IMG/VR virus record: IMGVR_UViG_3300034072_001149
Coordinates: 64,001 to 128,000 of that record
Length of the DNA: 64,000 bases
Strand: one strand, 5' to 3'
Source: a virus
The notes beneath the pieces were generated by a model, which had not been told where the DNA came from, ran no database searches, and saw only the letters and a program-made list of their open reading frames with translations. Below, in pieces: positions 26,566-29,632 of this stretch. The translations under genes and the position numbers were made by a program. Within the stretch, counting starts at the first letter, position 1; each line of letters starts with the position of its first letter.

Positions 26566-26876
26566 TAGATTTCTCCTCCAAAAGTCAGTTTAAAAAGCAG
26601 TGCGGTGTCACGGTTCTCGAAATACCACTTATCGGCACCACCGTTGTGCCAAAAGCTACCCTGTTGTTCCTTACACCAGGTCATCATTTCCGACAACGGA
26701 CCACCTTTTTGAATATTAACGGTGGTACATTCCGGCCAAGCTTCCCGGAGTCGCTTACTCCAGTGTTTGTCTCGAGTGCTCTGTCCAACTGGTGGACAGA
26801 ACTTGAGGCCACATTCCCTCCAAGCTTTGATATAAGCTTGGGTGGCAATTGACTGGGCTGTGTTGAAGTCCATCAT
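26565..26876 (-). CDS. FKLxW-family small protein
   Basis: C-terminal WYFENRDTALLFKLTF. Confidence 0.65.
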   Translation of the reverse strand: MMDFNTAQSIATQAYIKAWRECGLKFCPPVGQSTRDKHWSKRLREAWPECTTVNIQKGGPLSEMMTWCKEQQGSFWHNGGADKWYFENRDTALLFKLTFGGEI

Positions 26877-27334
26877 CAGCTGACCGCCGAGAATCGCTTC
26901 GTGATTGCGTGGGCTTGTTCTTTGGTGCAGGGACCAATGCCAAGCGCAGTCACAATGGGCTGACCATCAAATGCCGTTCCCGGCACTACATGGTTCTTGT
27001 CAATGATGAGGGAAGTAATCAGACCAGCTTCCTGAGCCGCCTCATACGCTCGCAGGATCGCTGCTTCGTTCTTGGCTTTGAGGATGATCTGAGTGCCGAT
27101 AAAGTCCGGGCCCTGGTAAACGCGCAGGAGCTCAGGATCTCGACGGCTAGCAAGAAGCACACAATTCTTGGCAGCGTGACAAGCCTGGCTTGCCAACTTG
27201 CCTGGCTTCATATCCAGGTCGCCTCGAATGATGCTGTAGATGCGAAGCTTTTCAGACGCAGCTTCGAAGGCGTCATAGTCGTTGTCGTTGTCGTAACGAG
27301 CAGCGGCTTCCTACAAGAAAGAATTCGTGATCAT
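26876..27334 (-). CDS. pth2: Peptidyl-tRNA hydrolase type 2 with in-frame amber codon (27311-27313)
   Basis: AAGGA SD, then ATG ATC ACG AAT TCT TTC TTG TAG GAA..., continuing in frame into KLRIYSIIRGDLDMKPGKLASQACHAA...IILKA...TALGIGP; the conserved first strand lies upstream of the track's Met at 27211. Confidence 0.85.
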
Positions 27335-27375
27335 TGTCGTTCCTTTTGGTTACTGTCCAACATCGGACAAGCTTC

Positions 27376-27403
27376 AACATAAGAGGGTTTCAGGATATGT
27401 CAA
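27376..27403 (-). promoter_or_regulatory. sigma70-like promoter of pth2
   Basis: TTGACA-N16-TATGTT. Confidence 0.55.
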
Positions 27404-27416
27404 CCGTCTTTTTGAA

Positions 27417-27776
27417 TTATTCTCTCCAACGCAATTTGAACATCATTGCGTCTTTGCCATTTTCAAAGATAACTCCCACACTGGACGAGCAACCGCTGGT
27501 CCATCCTGCTTTTTTGAAGTCACCAAACTTTACATTGCTTTCAAGCCATGGTAACATTTCTGAAAAGGTGGAGGCTATGAATCCAGTGATTCTAACCAAA
27601 TACCATCCTGGATATTTGGAATTCACGGTATCAACAAAATCAAGATCGGGGAAATCGTCTTCCTCAAACATACTGTTGAGTTTGGCTTCTCCCAAGACAC
27701 CATCGGTCTCAGGTTCCGCTACATCGTCGAACCATTCTTCGACGTGATCTGTATTTTCATTACGATAGTAGGGCAT
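27417..27776 (-). CDS. FKLxW-family small protein with acidic N-terminus
   Basis: C-terminal VIFENGKDAMMFKLRW. Confidence 0.7.
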   Translation of the reverse strand: MPYYRNENTDHVEEWFDDVAEPETDGVLGEAKLNSMFEEDDFPDLDFVDTVNSKYPGWYLVRITGFIASTFSEMLPWLESNVKFGDFKKAGWTSGCSSSVGVIFENGKDAMMFKLRWRE

Positions 27777-27792
27777 TTTCTCAACTCACTCT

Positions 27793-27867
27793 TTAAATCA
27801 AACCATAGACGGATTGATAGTGAGGAGGAGCCCGAGGAGCCTAGTGTTGGGTAAGAATCTTTTTCAT
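27793..27867 (-). promoter_or_regulatory. Putative amber-interrupted leader peptide MKKILTQH*APRAPPHYQSVYGLI
   Basis: TAAGG SD, ATG, TAG at codon 9, RAPP, TAA; fills the intergenic gap; CTCACT can pair with AGTGAG in the downstream RBS. Confidence 0.6.
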
Positions 27868-27870
27868 GCC

Positions 27871-28257
27871 TTACTTATACTGATCTAACATATAAGAGTC
27901 AATATTCAAGGACAGTTTGGCAATGAGAGCATCATTGGCTGTTTGGGTTCTGACTACTAGGCGCATCTGATATTCAGAACCACTTGAAAAGTCATCATCA
28001 ATTTCCATAAAACTAAAGAAATGACCTTTTATACAATCCAAGATCTGACGGAAGATTTCGGGATTGGGCCAATAGAAAAATGAAGGATAAACACAAACAA
28101 ATGGCTTACCATAAAATACGAAGTCAAGTGGGGTATCAGACGTCCAGTCTATGGTAGCGACTGGTTCAGTAAATCTCCGATTAAGAGAACCGTAGATACA
28201 GTCTTTACTAGTCCTGTAGACTGTTTTGACTAGCGGTCGACTAGTTGAGGAGATCAC
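27871..28257 (-). CDS. Hypothetical protein (divergent FKLxW-like)
   Basis: C-terminal VRTQTANDALIAKLSL; GTG start uncertain. Confidence 0.5.
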   Translation of the reverse strand: MISSTSRPLVKTVYRTSKDCIYGSLNRRFTEPVATIDWTSDTPLDFVFYGKPFVCVYPSFFYWPNPEIFRQILDCIKGHFFSFMEIDDDFSSGSEYQMRLVVRTQTANDALIAKLSLNIDSYMLDQYK

Positions 28258-28684
28258 GATCTGCGGCCAGATTCAAGATGGTACGATAAACTCGCATGTT
28301 GGGACGATAAGGACCTCGCCCAAAATACTTGTTGTCGTCCCCGTAGAGGGCCTTTTCGAGGGCCGCAGCAACAGCCGCGCTCCTGCATTGCCCCATGAGG
28401 CAGTGGACGTAGATGACGCTAACACCGGCAGTTTCCATCTCCTTGTAGAAGTCAAGGATCTGACCGGCGTGATCCTCATTGAAGAGGATACGAGTTTCAT
28501 TCTCGGGCTCGCCGTTCTTGCAATCGTCAATATCATGAAACTGGAGGTTGAGTCTTCCGATCAGGAAGTCGTTCTCATGAACTACTGGGAAATCACCCTT
28601 CTCACAGATGCTTATCAGAGCCCACGGCTTCTCAGGCGGACTTACTGCCATCATAGTGGCACGGCTGTAGACAACAAACTTCAT
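28241..28684 (-). CDS. Protein tyrosine / dual-specificity phosphatase-like protein
   Basis: LISI, FHDID, VHCLMGQCRSAAVA (HCxxGxxRS) and PN motif; ends in TAG. Confidence 0.85.
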   Translation of the reverse strand: MKFVVYSRATMMAVSPPEKPWALISICEKGDFPVVHENDFLIGRLNLQFHDIDDCKNGEPENETRILFNEDHAGQILDFYKEMETAGVSVIYVHCLMGQCRSAAVAAALEKALYGDDNKYFGRGPYRPNMRVYRTILNLAADRDLLN

Positions 28685-28690
28685 TACACC

Positions 28691-28718
28691 AGTCTACAGC
28701 ACAAAGCCTATATGTCAA
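28691..28718 (-). promoter_or_regulatory. sigma70-like promoter
   Basis: TTGACA-N16-TAGACT. Confidence 0.55.
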
Positions 28719-29503
28719 CCATCAATAGGTGGGATCTTATTGATATCATCGCGCTGGGCCTGATACCAGTTGTAAACGCAACGATCCAGACCAATAGCAA
28801 TTTCAAGGACCAGAGCGTCCTTTTCCACAATGTCTTTCTTGCCCTGAAAGGTCAGCTTCTGCGGGAAATCAGTTCGTAGACTGATCGAGCAAACTTCCAT
28901 CCACTTGTCGCCGTTCCAAATCTCGACATCCATGGTTCTCTTGCTGTAAGAGGGCAGGCGATCGCTTTCGACAATACGGGTTGGCAAATGGACCATAGCG
29001 GCAATCATCTGCTGGACCTTGGTCAGCATGGCTTCCTGATAGTCCATGCCGGTATCCGCAGTAAAGATACACTGGAATTCCTGCTGGTAGAATTCCTTCA
29101 AGCGCATATGCTTGGTTGGCTGGACAATTTCCCTGCGAAAGCTTTTGCCAGCTTGCCACACAACCAAGGGAGGGAAAACCTTGGGATGAACATTGTTGAG
29201 TAAGTGCTGGGCATAAGCATAGCTACCCGGCGTGGTCTCCGGACGCAAAGCCAGCTCACGAGGGGCATTCTCAACCCGATGGTCTCCCCACTGAAGCCAG
29301 ATGTCATCCTCGGTATAGTTGACGTTTAGGAGATCTCGGGGATTGAGAAGCGGGGCTTCGATCATGAAGAACTTCCAGCGATCATTCATAGCCAGGAGGT
29401 CAGCCTGCACCCTCGCGGCAAAGAAGTCCCGCATGGTTTCCCGCAAGCGGATCTCTTCCTCATTCCAAAAGACGAGACCGTTGATGTTGAAGACGTTCTG
29501 CAT
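28715..29503 (-). CDS. Class II aminoacyl-tRNA synthetase catalytic core, GlyRS(alpha2)-like, lacking the anticodon-binding domain
   Basis: LRPETTPG, motif 2 QAGKSFRRE..MRLKEFYQQEFQ, SYSKRTMDVE, WMEVCSISLRTDF and motif 3 VLEIAIGLDR; ends about 20 aa after motif 3. Confidence 0.85.
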   Translation of the reverse strand: MQNVFNINGLVFWNEEEIRLRETMRDFFAARVQADLLAMNDRWKFFMIEAPLLNPRDLLNVNYTEDDIWLQWGDHRVENAPRELALRPETTPGSYAYAQHLLNNVHPKVFPPLVVWQAGKSFRREIVQPTKHMRLKEFYQQEFQCIFTADTGMDYQEAMLTKVQQMIAAMVHLPTRIVESDRLPSYSKRTMDVEIWNGDKWMEVCSISLRTDFPQKLTFQGKKDIVEKDALVLEIAIGLDRCVYNWYQAQRDDINKIPPIDG

Positions 29504-29555
29504 TTTTTATATCCACTAGTTCGATGAATTCATTGCCGTTAAGGCAAGTTGTCTT

Positions 29556-29632
29556 TGGCGCCCTTACCGAGACTTGAACTCGGGACCCACAGATTTAGAG
29601 TCTGTTGCTCTGACCAACTGAGCTATAAGGGC
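29556..29632 (-). tRNA. Amber suppressor tRNA (anticodon CUA), CCA encoded
   Basis: GCCCTTA TA GCTC AGTTGGTCA GAGC A ACAGA CTCTAAA TCTGT GGGTC CCGAG TTCAAGT CTCGG TAAGGGC G CCA; all four stems pair fully; 7-nt loop CU-CUA-AA. Confidence 0.93.

What the first reader, a model, noticed from the sequence alone, without database searches (positions are those of the whole stretch)
26876..29632. Candidate new system: phage-encoded amber read-through switch (tRNA-CUA + anticodon-blind synthetase + amber-gated genes)
Seen, within 2.8 kb on one strand and in this order: tRNA(CUA), a GlyRS-like catalytic core, a phosphatase ending in TAG, a hypothetical gene, a leader ORF with TAG at codon 9 plus RAPP, an FKLxW gene, and pth2 with TAG at codon 8. 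The only two early in-frame ambers I found in the 64 kb are both next to the suppressor. TAG still terminates a few normal genes, so this is not wholesale recoding. Inference: the phage makes and charges its own suppressor, and uses read-through as a conditional or timing switch. It could report release-factor competition or translation stress, and turn on ribosome-rescue functions. I cannot confirm novelty without a literature or database search.
Basis: partly seen in the sequence, partly recalled or inferred. Interest (0 to 1): 0.93.

Follow-up and report, generated by a model that had tools for sequence, protein, structure and literature searches.

The report
Suppressor-tRNA-gated translation switch in jumbo phage
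A giant phage that otherwise uses the normal genetic code carries its own UAG-reading tRNA and two nearby genetic "locks" (a peptidyl-tRNA hydrolase gene with an early UAG, and a tiny leader whose UAG guards a ribosome-stalling Arg-Ala-Pro-Pro motif) that open only if that stop codon is read through; I found no paper describing such a natural switch.

Summary
All parts lie on the minus strand: tRNA(CUA), a 262-aa GlyRS-like catalytic core, a phosphatase, a leader (8 codons, UAG, then RAPP) and pth2 with UAG at codon 8.

Comparison with about 25 related jumbo-phage loci supports two amber-gated elements:
- Every pth2 of this clade has SD, ATG, 3-8 codons and an in-frame stop. The stop is TAG wherever a tRNA(CUA) was found. 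It is TGA in Atu_ph07, whose only suppressor is tRNA(UCA).
- The leader keeps its UAG followed by R-[A/G/S/D]-P-P, the residues that published mutagenesis of RAPP arrest peptides allows. Its Pro-Pro codon region pairs with the ribosome-binding site of the next gene in all 12 leaders folded.

- The phosphatase's TAG stop is not conserved.
- The GlyRS-like core is not required. Two complete relatives have the gates and a suppressor but no such enzyme, and the family is widespread in jumbo phages without CUA tRNAs.

Best reading: a suppressor-tRNA-dependent translational switch for Pth2 and two small paralogous proteins. Its physiological purpose is inferred only.

This scan has reported the same design on other DNA (27 notes, at least 23 genomes). 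My searches of the paper library found no description of it.

The parts
29556..29632 (-). Amber suppressor tRNA, anticodon CUA, G73, encoded CCA, 5-nt variable loop. It stands apart from the main tRNA array of complete relatives.
   Evidence: ARAGORN; Rfam RF00005 73 bits. Orthologues lie in the same position in 7 IMG/VR relatives and in Phosso. Acceptor stems vary with compensatory changes and G73 is kept. The 'Pyl' label rests on the anticodon only; no PylS was found.
28715..29503 (-). Stand-alone class II aminoacyl-tRNA-synthetase catalytic core, GlyRS-like, 262 aa, without an anticodon-binding domain. It is a candidate charging enzyme but not a required part of the switch.
   Evidence: PF00587 44 bits. 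NF003211 GlyRS 60.8 bits, far below its cut-off of 312. PDB GlyRS E 2.5e-9. AF2 pLDDT 89.5, with dimeric GlyRS as the best folds. The motifs are invariant in 24 homologues. Absent from G001 and Atu_ph07.
28241..28684 (-). Small dual-specificity/tyrosine-phosphatase-like gene. Its TAG stop is incidental.
   Evidence: PF00782 weak match and phrog_5614. The stop is TAA or TGA in relatives.
27874..27902 (-). Promoter-like element TTGACT-17-TATAAG, ending 6 nt before the leader ATG. This predicts a leaderless or near-leaderless transcript.
   Evidence: Read from the sequence. The same -35/-10 geometry lies 5-8 nt before the leader ATG in 10 relatives (upstream sequences printed). The consensus scan did not list it because it requires T at the last position of the -10 hexamer.
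27793..27867 (-). Amber-gated arrest leader: 8 sense codons, UAG (27843-27841), Ala-Pro, then RAPP (27834-27823), then unconserved codons to TAA.
   Evidence: Conserved in 11 genomes as a short ORF, then TAG, then 2-6 codons, then RAPP/RGPP/RSPP/RDPP, with no conservation after Pro-Pro. The allowed residues match published mutagenesis (PMC12992588).
27777..27829 (-). Hairpin that pairs the Pro-Pro codons and the following bases (CUCCUCACU) with the AGUGAG..GAG ribosome-binding region of the 119-aa gene.
   Evidence: In the MFE folds of all 12 leaders, 6-13 of the 14 ribosome-binding-window bases pair with the Pro-Pro region, and the arms differ by clade. RNAalifold on 6 close relatives gives one compensatory pair and three one-sided changes that keep pairing.
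27417..27776 (-). 119-aa gene controlled by the leader: an acidic disordered N-terminus plus a conserved C-terminal domain ending FKLRW. Function unknown.
   Evidence: Orthologues follow the leader in all relatives. No Pfam, PHROG or PDB match. Paralogous to the 103-aa gene.
27376..27403 (-). Promoter-like TTGACA-16-TATGTT for pth2, followed by a conserved 5' hairpin (27355-27368) and the SD AAGGA.
   Evidence: Consensus scan. The hairpin shows compensatory changes in relatives (upstream sequences).
26876..27334 (-). pth2 (peptidyl-tRNA hydrolase 2) with in-frame UAG at codon 8 (27313-27311). Full-length protein needs read-through.
   Evidence: PF01981 73 bits, with the match starting at residue 32, before the internal Met-42. 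The TAG is kept in 12 of 12 close relatives while pS is 0.4-0.6. pN/pS is 0.11, 0.22 and 0.15 for the leader codons, the N-extension and the domain. Every lineage of the clade has an early in-frame stop.
26565..26876 (-). 103-aa paralogue of the 119-aa gene. Its start overlaps the pth2 stop (TGATG), so it is probably translationally coupled to gated pth2.
   Evidence: ORF list; hhalign E 6.9e-5 against the 119-aa family; conserved synteny.

Best explanation
The phage uses its own amber suppressor tRNA as a trans-acting key for two translational locks in the same gene cluster.

Lock 1 is pth2. Ribosomes start at a good SD and ATG, meet UAG at codon 8, and make active Pth2 only if the suppressor inserts an amino acid. 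Otherwise a heptapeptide is released. The 103-aa gene that overlaps the pth2 stop follows the same fate.

Lock 2 is a leaderless 8-codon mini-ORF.
- Without suppression, the ribosome terminates at UAG. A hairpin then keeps the ribosome-binding site of the 119-aa gene paired with the Pro-Pro codon region.
- With suppression, the ribosome runs five codons further to Arg-Ala-Pro with Pro in the A site. This is a RAPP-type arrest.
- The stalled ribosome sits on the 5' arm of the hairpin and frees the ribosome-binding site.

What is shown: the sequence anatomy, its conservation, and the covariation of stop codon with anticodon. What is inferred: read-through itself, the arrest, the unmasking, and the inserted amino acid.

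The most likely purpose, at about 35-40%, is a feed-forward link. Pth2 and its two small partner proteins would be made only when suppression is active, to recycle the peptidyl-tRNAs that read-through and stalling generate, or simply to time these genes by tRNA accumulation.
For: 1. Stop codon and suppressor covary. pth2 has TAG in the window, in Phosso, and in 10 IMG/VR and about 9 further metagenomic lineages. tRNA(CUA) was found in every one of them where enough genome is held. Atu_ph07 has TGA at codon 7 of pth2. Its only suppressor is tRNA(UCA), and it has no CUA tRNA. The stop before its Pro-Pro leader is also TGA.

2. The frame is one unit. pN/pS is 0.11 before the TAG, 0.22 after it and 0.15 in the domain, with pS 0.4-0.6 and TAG in 12 of 12. 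There is no ATG, GTG or TTG between the stop and the conserved first strand of the domain.

3. pth2 is the top outlier for coding sequence that continues upstream past a stop in all three genomes scanned.

4. The leader motif is RAPP in 5 genomes, RGPP in 3, RSPP in 2 and RDPP in 1. A and G are fully permissive, and S and D partly permissive, in mutagenesis of ApdA and ApdP. Arg and the Pro residues are essentially irreplaceable (PMC12992588). RAPP and RGPP work with different N-terminal contexts.

5. Sequence after Pro-Pro is unconserved, as expected if ribosomes stop there.

6. The hairpin between the Pro-Pro region and the ribosome-binding site is predicted in 12 of 12 leaders, with clade-specific complementary arms and a constant spacing of 45-56 nt.

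7. R[AG]PP occurs nowhere in about 327,000 residues of called proteins from the three genomes.

8. ApdP, a proven RAPP arrest peptide, comes from Sinorhizobium, the host genus of Phosso (PMC7897499).
Against: - There is no direct evidence of read-through, arrest, tRNA expression or charging.
- The stop/anticodon covariation rests on only two independent lineages (TAG and TGA).
- Known RAPP arrest peptides are 100-140 aa and have a signal or membrane segment. Here the nascent chain would be about 14 residues, and arrest of so short a chain has not been shown.
- Pro-Pro codons are inherently complementary to a Shine-Dalgarno sequence, so part of the pairing comes for free. Within the closest subclade the stem is mostly invariant, so covariation there is weak.
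- TAG still ends 16 of 188 genes here. TGA ends 298 of 778 genes in Atu_ph07. No back-up stops are enriched behind them. Suppression must therefore be weak, dependent on context or position, or tolerated.
- The Atu_ph07 leader has KPP followed by a stop rather than RxPP.
Confidence: 0.8

Rival explanations
1. The full first-reader model: an orthogonal pair. The GlyRS-like core, which lacks an anticodon-binding domain, is the dedicated enzyme that charges the CUA tRNA (probably with glycine), and the switch depends on it.
For: - The core lies 52 nt downstream of the tRNA on the same strand, an adjacency kept in 9 genomes.
- G73-type CUA tRNAs occur only in genomes that have the enzyme. G001 and Atu_ph07 have A73-type suppressors and no enzyme.
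- The catalytic motifs and the GlyRS-like RPET, FRRE, EFxQQE and LExAIGLDR motifs are invariant.
- The fold is closest to GlyRS.
Against: - The gates work, or at least persist, without the enzyme in G001 and Atu_ph07.
- The tRNA and the enzyme are adjacent, so their joint absence may be a single deletion.
- The family has 1891 members. In 49 of 56 IMG/VR loci it has no CUA tRNA nearby. It lies in mixed tRNA arrays, often near tRNA-Gly, or beside no tRNA at all. In XbC2 it sits next to tRNA-Ser(GCU).
- The acceptor stems of the CUA tRNAs are not conserved.
Confidence: 0.3
2. There is no read-through. The short ORFs are independent mini-genes or uORFs that end at the stop, and Pth2 is initiated downstream at a non-canonical codon or by reinitiation. 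The suppressor tRNA is unrelated.
For: Short uORFs and minigenes are common in phages. An ATT follows the TGA in Atu_ph07. No experiment shows read-through.
Against: - The uORF and pth2 are in the same frame in every lineage, despite leader lengths of 3-8 codons.
- The stop is never TAA and matches the genome's suppressor.
- The codons just after the stop are under purifying selection and no conserved alternative start exists there.
- For the other leader, RxPP lies beyond the stop and would never be translated, yet it is the most conserved part.
Confidence: 0.06
3. The suppressor tRNA's main job is global: reading through host or phage stop codons, for host shut-off or C-terminal extensions. 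The two gated sites are by-products or merely a safety sensor of that activity.
For: The Atu_ph07 authors proposed many possible UGA targets (PMC6102473). A Pth2 made in proportion to read-through would fit damage control.
Against: - There is no enrichment of back-up stops or other adaptation behind TAG or TGA terminators in the three genomes.
- No other conserved in-frame stops were found in them.
- The only selected targets detectable are the two gates.
Confidence: 0.12
4. Artefact: sequencing errors or decaying pseudogenes.
For: None beyond the presence of stops in frames.
Against: The same stops are present in isolates (Phosso, Atu_ph07) and in more than 20 independent assemblies, with strong purifying selection on both sides.
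Confidence: 0.01

Closest known systems
RAPP/RGPP-type regulatory arrest peptides (ApdA, ApdP, ApcA; SecM with RAGP) that unmask a downstream Shine-Dalgarno sequence
   Same: The same four-residue core with the same tolerated substitutions. The same position just upstream of, and co-directional with, the regulated gene. The same kind of stem-loop sequestering the ribosome-binding site, which a ribosome stalled at RAP/P would open (PMC7897499, PMC10951233, PMC12992588).
   Different: Known members are 100-140-aa secreted or membrane 'monitoring substrates', whose arrest is released by Sec or YidC activity. Here the peptide is about 14 residues at the stall and has no signal or membrane segment. 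The input is whether a stop codon ahead of the motif is read through. It is phage-encoded and regulates a gene of unknown function next to pth2.
Stop-codon-recoded phages and the Jade 'code change module' (suppressor tRNA + aaRS + release factor ahead of recoded lysis genes; Borges et al., bioRxiv 10.1101/2021.08.26.457843)
   Same: A phage-encoded suppressor tRNA in a host with the standard code. In-frame stops are proposed to delay or condition expression of particular genes. An aaRS gene lies next to the tRNA.
   Different: Recoded phages carry in-frame stops in many late genes. Here the genome is standard-code and only two sites, both within the first nine codons, are gated. The targets are Pth2 and a leader peptide rather than lysis or structural genes. 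The neighbouring enzyme is a bare GlyRS-like core and is dispensable in relatives.
bldA tRNA-Leu(UUA) control of TTA-containing genes in Streptomyces (from my own knowledge)
   Same: One tRNA acts as a trans-acting regulator of a few genes that contain its codon.
   Different: bldA reads a rare sense codon, not a stop. No arrest peptide is involved, and it is cellular rather than viral.
Synthetic amber-codon leader-peptide switches (TAG placed in tna/trp leaders and read by an orthogonal tRNA; Liu et al. 2011, reviewed in PMC6412442)
   Same: Translation of a leader beyond an inserted UAG by a suppressor tRNA decides expression of the downstream gene.
   Different: These switches are engineered, act on transcription termination, and depend on an unnatural amino acid. 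The phage version is natural and acts through arrest and unmasking of the ribosome-binding site.
Peptidyl-tRNA hydrolase 2 (PF01981) of archaea, eukaryotes and other phages
   Same: A clear Pth2 domain (73 bits), with the GK.A.Q..HA and GIGP motifs kept.
   Different: This clade has a 20-40-residue N-terminal extension with an obligatory early stop codon. More distant Pth2 genes from metagenomes start normally (L177-L180).

Membership tests
RAPP-like regulatory arrest peptide | C-terminal core R-A/G-P-P (S, D and P partly tolerated at position 2; Arg and Pro essential) | tested here: met
   RAPP in the window. RAPP, RGPP, RSPP or RDPP in 11 genomes. The tolerated set comes from PMC12992588.
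RAPP-like regulatory arrest peptide | Encoded just upstream of the regulated gene, with a stem-loop that sequesters its ribosome-binding site and would be opened by the stalled ribosome | tested here: met
   12 of 12 predicted folds pair the Pro-Pro region with the ribosome-binding window. A consensus stem is found in 6 relatives. This is prediction only.
RAPP-like regulatory arrest peptide | Experimentally shown elongation arrest (peptidyl-tRNA accumulation, toeprint) | not testable with these tools
   Needs in vitro translation with the suppressor tRNA.
RAPP-like regulatory arrest peptide | N-terminal signal or membrane segment that makes it a Sec/YidC monitoring substrate | tested here: not met
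   Only 8 residues precede the UAG and none form a hydrophobic segment. It works like an arrest leader but is not a monitoring substrate.
Stop-codon-recoded phage (code 15 or code 4) | Phage-encoded suppressor tRNA | tested here: met
Stop-codon-recoded phage (code 15 or code 4) | In-frame recoded stops in a large share of genes, and better gene calls under the alternative code | tested here: not met
   Dense coding under table 11. No stop codon has coding signal on both sides. Only pth2 stands out.
Stop-codon-recoded phage (code 15 or code 4) | Phage-encoded release factor that spares the recoded stop | not tested
   I made no search for prfA or prfB.
Peptidyl-tRNA hydrolase 2 (PF01981) | Full-length Pfam domain above the gathering score | tested here: met
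   73.4 bits against a cut-off of 23, profile positions 3-113 of 115, but only when the TAG is read through. NF003314 scores 61.6 bits, below its equivalog cut-off of 126.
Glycyl-tRNA synthetase (dimeric type) | Class II catalytic core with motifs 2 and 3, and GlyRS as closest relative | tested here: met
Glycyl-tRNA synthetase (dimeric type) | C-terminal anticodon-binding domain, and a score above the equivalog cut-off | tested here: not met
   262 aa with PF00587 only. 60.8 bits against a cut-off of 312. Family members are 245-300 aa.
Glycyl-tRNA synthetase (dimeric type) | Activates glycine and charges a tRNA | not testable with these tools
   The acidic residues of the RPET, QQE and LE.A motifs line up with GlyRS in the printed alignment. 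There is no biochemical evidence.
Pyrrolysine system (tRNA-Pyl + PylS) | PylS present | tested here: not met
   The best hit is 33 bits against a cut-off of 178, in five genomes. ARAGORN's 'Pyl' label follows the anticodon only.

The most novel reading that the evidence does not exclude
Phage 'orphan' suppressor tRNAs in standard-code genomes are dedicated regulatory RNAs. They form a natural lock-and-key circuit in which a tRNA switches on a small regulon through early stop codons: Pth2 and partner proteins. One of the locks is the first arrest peptide whose input is stop-codon read-through itself, that is, a built-in sensor of the balance between suppressor tRNA and release factor. In this clade the key may additionally be charged by a minimal, anticodon-independent GlyRS core, which would make it a natural orthogonal tRNA/synthetase pair.
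Probability: 0.45. Interest if true: 0.92.

Novelty: new variant of a known kind. Interest (0 to 1): 0.85.

Why it matters
- It gives a concrete, testable function to suppressor tRNAs that isolate papers on standard-code jumbo phages noted but left unexplained. The Atu_ph07 paper lists a UCA suppressor. The AP-J-162 paper calls its CUA tRNA 'tRNA-Pyl'.
- It would add a new input, stop-codon read-through, to the small list of signals sensed by ribosome arrest peptides.
- It would show arrest by a nascent chain of only about 14 residues.
- It links suppression to peptidyl-tRNA recycling.
- It offers ready-made natural parts for synthetic biology: a suppressor tRNA, a gated leader, and possibly a minimal anticodon-blind synthetase.
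- It may represent the earliest stage on the path to full stop-codon recoding in phages.

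Tried and rejected
- Wholesale recoding: rejected. Stop-to-stop ORF statistics and a coding-potential scan on both sides of every stop found nothing.
- Homology-through-stop scan between the three genomes: useless, because it was swamped by out-of-frame alignments of conserved DNA.
- Second Phosso candidate for an N-terminal TAG (232168-233031): false. 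The 'coding' signal is the antisense strand of a divergent gene.
- Back-up stops behind TAG or TGA terminators: not enriched.
- Phosphatase TAG stop as part of the system: rejected.
- Pyrrolysine: rejected.
I used per-sequence folds and a subclade alignment instead. My first duplex script crashed part-way.
- Function of the 119-aa protein: nothing found in Pfam, PHROGs, NCBIfam, the ESM Atlas, AF2 with Foldseek PDB, or by hhalign against Pth2.
- Identity of the inserted amino acid: open. No relative has a sense codon at the gate. The tRNA body resembles tRNA-Trp in the A73 type, and G73 with C34, U35 and A36 fits several synthetases.
- No complex-prediction job was sent, because no protein-protein binding is claimed.

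Full report
**What is there**

The window is part of a 159-kb contig, about one third of the genome of a jumbo phage. The phage is related to Sinorhizobium phage Phosso (469 kb) and Agrobacterium phage Atu_ph07 (490 kb). It is densely coding under the standard code.

- tRNA(CUA) at 29556-29632.
- A 262-aa class II synthetase core at 28715-29503. Its best relatives by sequence and by predicted fold are dimeric GlyRS, and it has no anticodon-binding domain.
- A small phosphatase ending in TAG.
- A hypothetical gene.
- A mini-ORF that reads 8 codons, UAG, Ala-Pro, RAPP, and then on to a TAA.
- A 119-aa gene.
- pth2 with a good SD and ATG, six more codons, UAG, and then an open frame. In that frame the Pfam PTH2 match begins ten residues before the only internal Met.

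**Is it more than chance?**

I trained a codon-usage score on long ORFs and called 188 genes in the contig. For each gene I asked whether coding signal continues upstream of its bounding stop. pth2 is the lone outlier at 33 codons and +19 bits; the next best gene reaches +7. The same test puts pth2 first in Phosso (TAG, 50 codons, +21) and in Atu_ph07 (TGA, 32 codons, +14). A second Phosso candidate proved to be antisense signal. No stop codon in the contig has coding signal on both sides over 30 codons. TAG ends 16 of the 188 called genes. So there is no general recoding, and the two early ambers are special.

**Comparative evidence for pth2**

Every member of this Pth2 clade has SD, ATG, 3-8 sense codons and an in-frame stop. 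This holds for:
- Phosso (TAG after Met-Lys-Tyr).
- Ten IMG/VR contigs.
- About nine further metagenomic lineages, down to 56% identity.

The stop is never replaced by a sense codon and is never TAA. More distant Pth2 genes start normally.

In twelve close relatives synonymous divergence is 0.4-0.6 per site, yet codon 8 is TAG in all. pN/pS is 0.11 for the six codons before the TAG, 0.22 for the 33 after it and 0.15 for the domain, so this is one frame under one regime of selection.

Atu_ph07 is the telling exception. Its pth2 has TGA at codon 7. Among its 30 tRNAs the only suppressor has anticodon UCA, and there is no CUA tRNA. The TAG phages carry CUA tRNAs wherever enough genome is available. 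The Atu_ph07 paper noted the UCA tRNA but did not connect it to pth (PMC6102473). The AP-J-162 paper called its CUA tRNA 'tRNA-Pyl' (PMC11242549). No PylS exists in these genomes.

**Comparative evidence for the leader**

Upstream of every orthologue of the 119-aa gene there is a short ORF of 5-8 codons. It is followed by TAG, then 2-6 codons, then RAPP (5 genomes), RGPP (3), RSPP (2) or RDPP (1). After Pro-Pro all conservation stops.

Systematic mutagenesis of ApdA and ApdP gave the following (PMC12992588):
- Arg and the Pro residues are essentially irreplaceable.
- Gly at position 2 is as good as or better than Ala.
- Ser, Asp and Pro at position 2 are partly permissive.
- RAPP and RGPP arrest in varied N-terminal contexts and resist EF-P.

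The natural variation in the phage leaders falls within that permitted set. R[AG]PP is absent from about 327,000 residues of called proteins in the three genomes.

A conserved TTGAC(T/A)-N17-TATAAG/TAAAT element ends 5-8 nt before the leader ATG. This predicts a leaderless transcript.

In minimum-free-energy folds of all twelve leaders, Atu_ph07 included, the Pro-Pro codons and their neighbours pair with the ribosome-binding window of the downstream gene. The spacing from Pro-Pro to the start codon is constant at 45-56 nt. The arms are complementary within each clade but differ between clades:
- Window clade: CACUCAC with GUGAGUG.
- Phosso clade: UCGUUCUCC with GGAGAACGA.
- L092: CCUCCUCCA with UGGAGGA.
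- L095: CCUCCUUU with AAAGGAG.
- Atu_ph07: CCUCCAUA with UAUGGAG.

Within the closest subclade the stem is mostly invariant, with one compensatory pair and three one-sided changes that keep pairing. A ribosome held with the first Pro codon in the P site would cover the 5' arm. A ribosome terminating at the UAG, five codons earlier, would not.

In Atu_ph07 the equivalent stop is again TGA. The read-through peptide there ends in Lys-Pro-Pro followed by a stop, rather than RxPP.

**The synthetase**

The family is under strong constraint, with the GlyRS-like motifs invariant in 24 homologues, and it models confidently. It is also a widespread jumbo-phage gene, with 1891 hits.
- In 56 IMG/VR loci only the seven of this clade have a CUA tRNA next to it. 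The others lie in mixed tRNA arrays, often with tRNA-Gly close by, or beside no tRNA at all.
- In XbC2 it follows tRNA-Ser(GCU).
- G001, a complete 480-kb relative of Phosso, has both gates and a CUA tRNA elsewhere in its genome (A73 type), but no such enzyme.
- Atu_ph07 likewise has none.

So the enzyme is not part of the minimal switch. It may still be the charging enzyme of the G73-type CUA tRNA that always sits beside it. That correlation is perfect but confounded by physical linkage. I put it at about 0.3.

**Other points**

- The phosphatase's TAG stop is TAA or TGA in 10 of the 11 phosphatase genes compared.
- The 119-aa protein has an acidic disordered N-terminus and a conserved C-terminal domain with no detectable relatives of known function.
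- It is paralogous to the 103-aa gene whose start overlaps the pth2 stop. The outputs of the switch are therefore Pth2 plus two paralogous small proteins.

**Mechanism and its limits**

The sequence-level design is well supported: key, two locks, arrest motif and masking hairpin. Read-through, arrest and unmasking are inferred. Three caveats apply.
- The nascent chain at the stall is far shorter than in known RAPP peptides.
- The stop/anticodon covariation rests on two lineages.
- Ordinary TAG terminators (TGA in Atu_ph07) show no protective back-up stops. Suppression must therefore be weak, tolerated, or favoured at stops very near the start. The last idea comes from the minigene literature as I recall it and was not tested here.

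The purpose is a hypothesis: damage control for suppression, timing, or sensing of the balance between release factor and tRNA.

**Novelty**

My searches of the paper library found RAPP arrest peptides, recoded phages with 'code change modules', and synthetic amber-leader switches. They found no natural read-through-gated arrest leader and no suppressor-gated pth2.

Within this scan the same design has been reported and followed up on other DNA: 27 notes in at least 23 genomes, including a close relative of this phage. Those are AI notes, not independent evidence. My tests here agree with them. They add the Atu_ph07 TGA/UCA case, the selection analysis, and the evidence that the mini-synthetase is dispensable.

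Noticed in passing
window 29644-30105 (-): A 153-aa potassium-channel-like gene (PF07885) lies immediately upstream of the suppressor tRNA. The synteny CysRS, 201-aa gene, K+ channel, tRNA is kept in most relatives of this clade.
   Followed up: partly
window 30767-32116 (-) and 23946-25214 (-): A full-length cysteinyl-tRNA synthetase and a polynucleotide-kinase/phosphatase (NinI-like plus PNK) flank the locus. Relatives add an RNA ligase. Together these form a translation and tRNA-repair neighbourhood.
   Followed up: partly
window 4609-15009 (+): A single ORF of 3466 aa. I did not examine it.
   Followed up: no
window 26565-26876 and 27417-27776; L001 4547-4942 and 8584-8901: A family of small proteins ending in a (F/M/L)KLx(W/F/Y) helix has several paralogues around pth2 and, in Phosso, one between the tRNA and the synthetase. 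The 119-aa and 103-aa genes are related at hhalign E 6.9e-5. Function unknown.
   Followed up: partly
window 27355-27368 (-): A conserved hairpin (GUCC-GAUGUU-GGAC) lies between the pth2 promoter and its SD. Relatives show compensatory stem changes (for example GUAUCC/GGAUAC) and an invariant loop (upstream sequences).
   Followed up: no
Phosso whole genome (L039-L062): Phosso has 62 tRNAs for 19 amino acids but no tRNA-Tyr, and two CUA tRNAs: one G73 type next to the synthetase, and one A73 type resembling tRNA-Trp in the tRNA array. The AP-J-162 paper reports the same absence of tRNA-Tyr together with a CUA tRNA.
   Followed up: partly
G000 contig, all TAG-terminated genes: None of the 16 TAG terminators in the contig is followed by G (A 6, T 8, C 2), whereas both gated TAGs are followed by G. 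The contrast does not hold in Phosso, where 15 of 39 are followed by G.
   Followed up: partly
L004 5893-6783 (Xanthomonas phage XbC2): The homologous mini-synthetase there lies 20 nt downstream of an 88-nt tRNA-Ser(GCU) with G73.
   Followed up: no
G004:C1:306633-319553: Weak PylS_Cterm-like matches (27-33 bits, far below the cut-off) inside the main tRNA array of a complete relative suggest further class II synthetase-like genes there.
   Followed up: no
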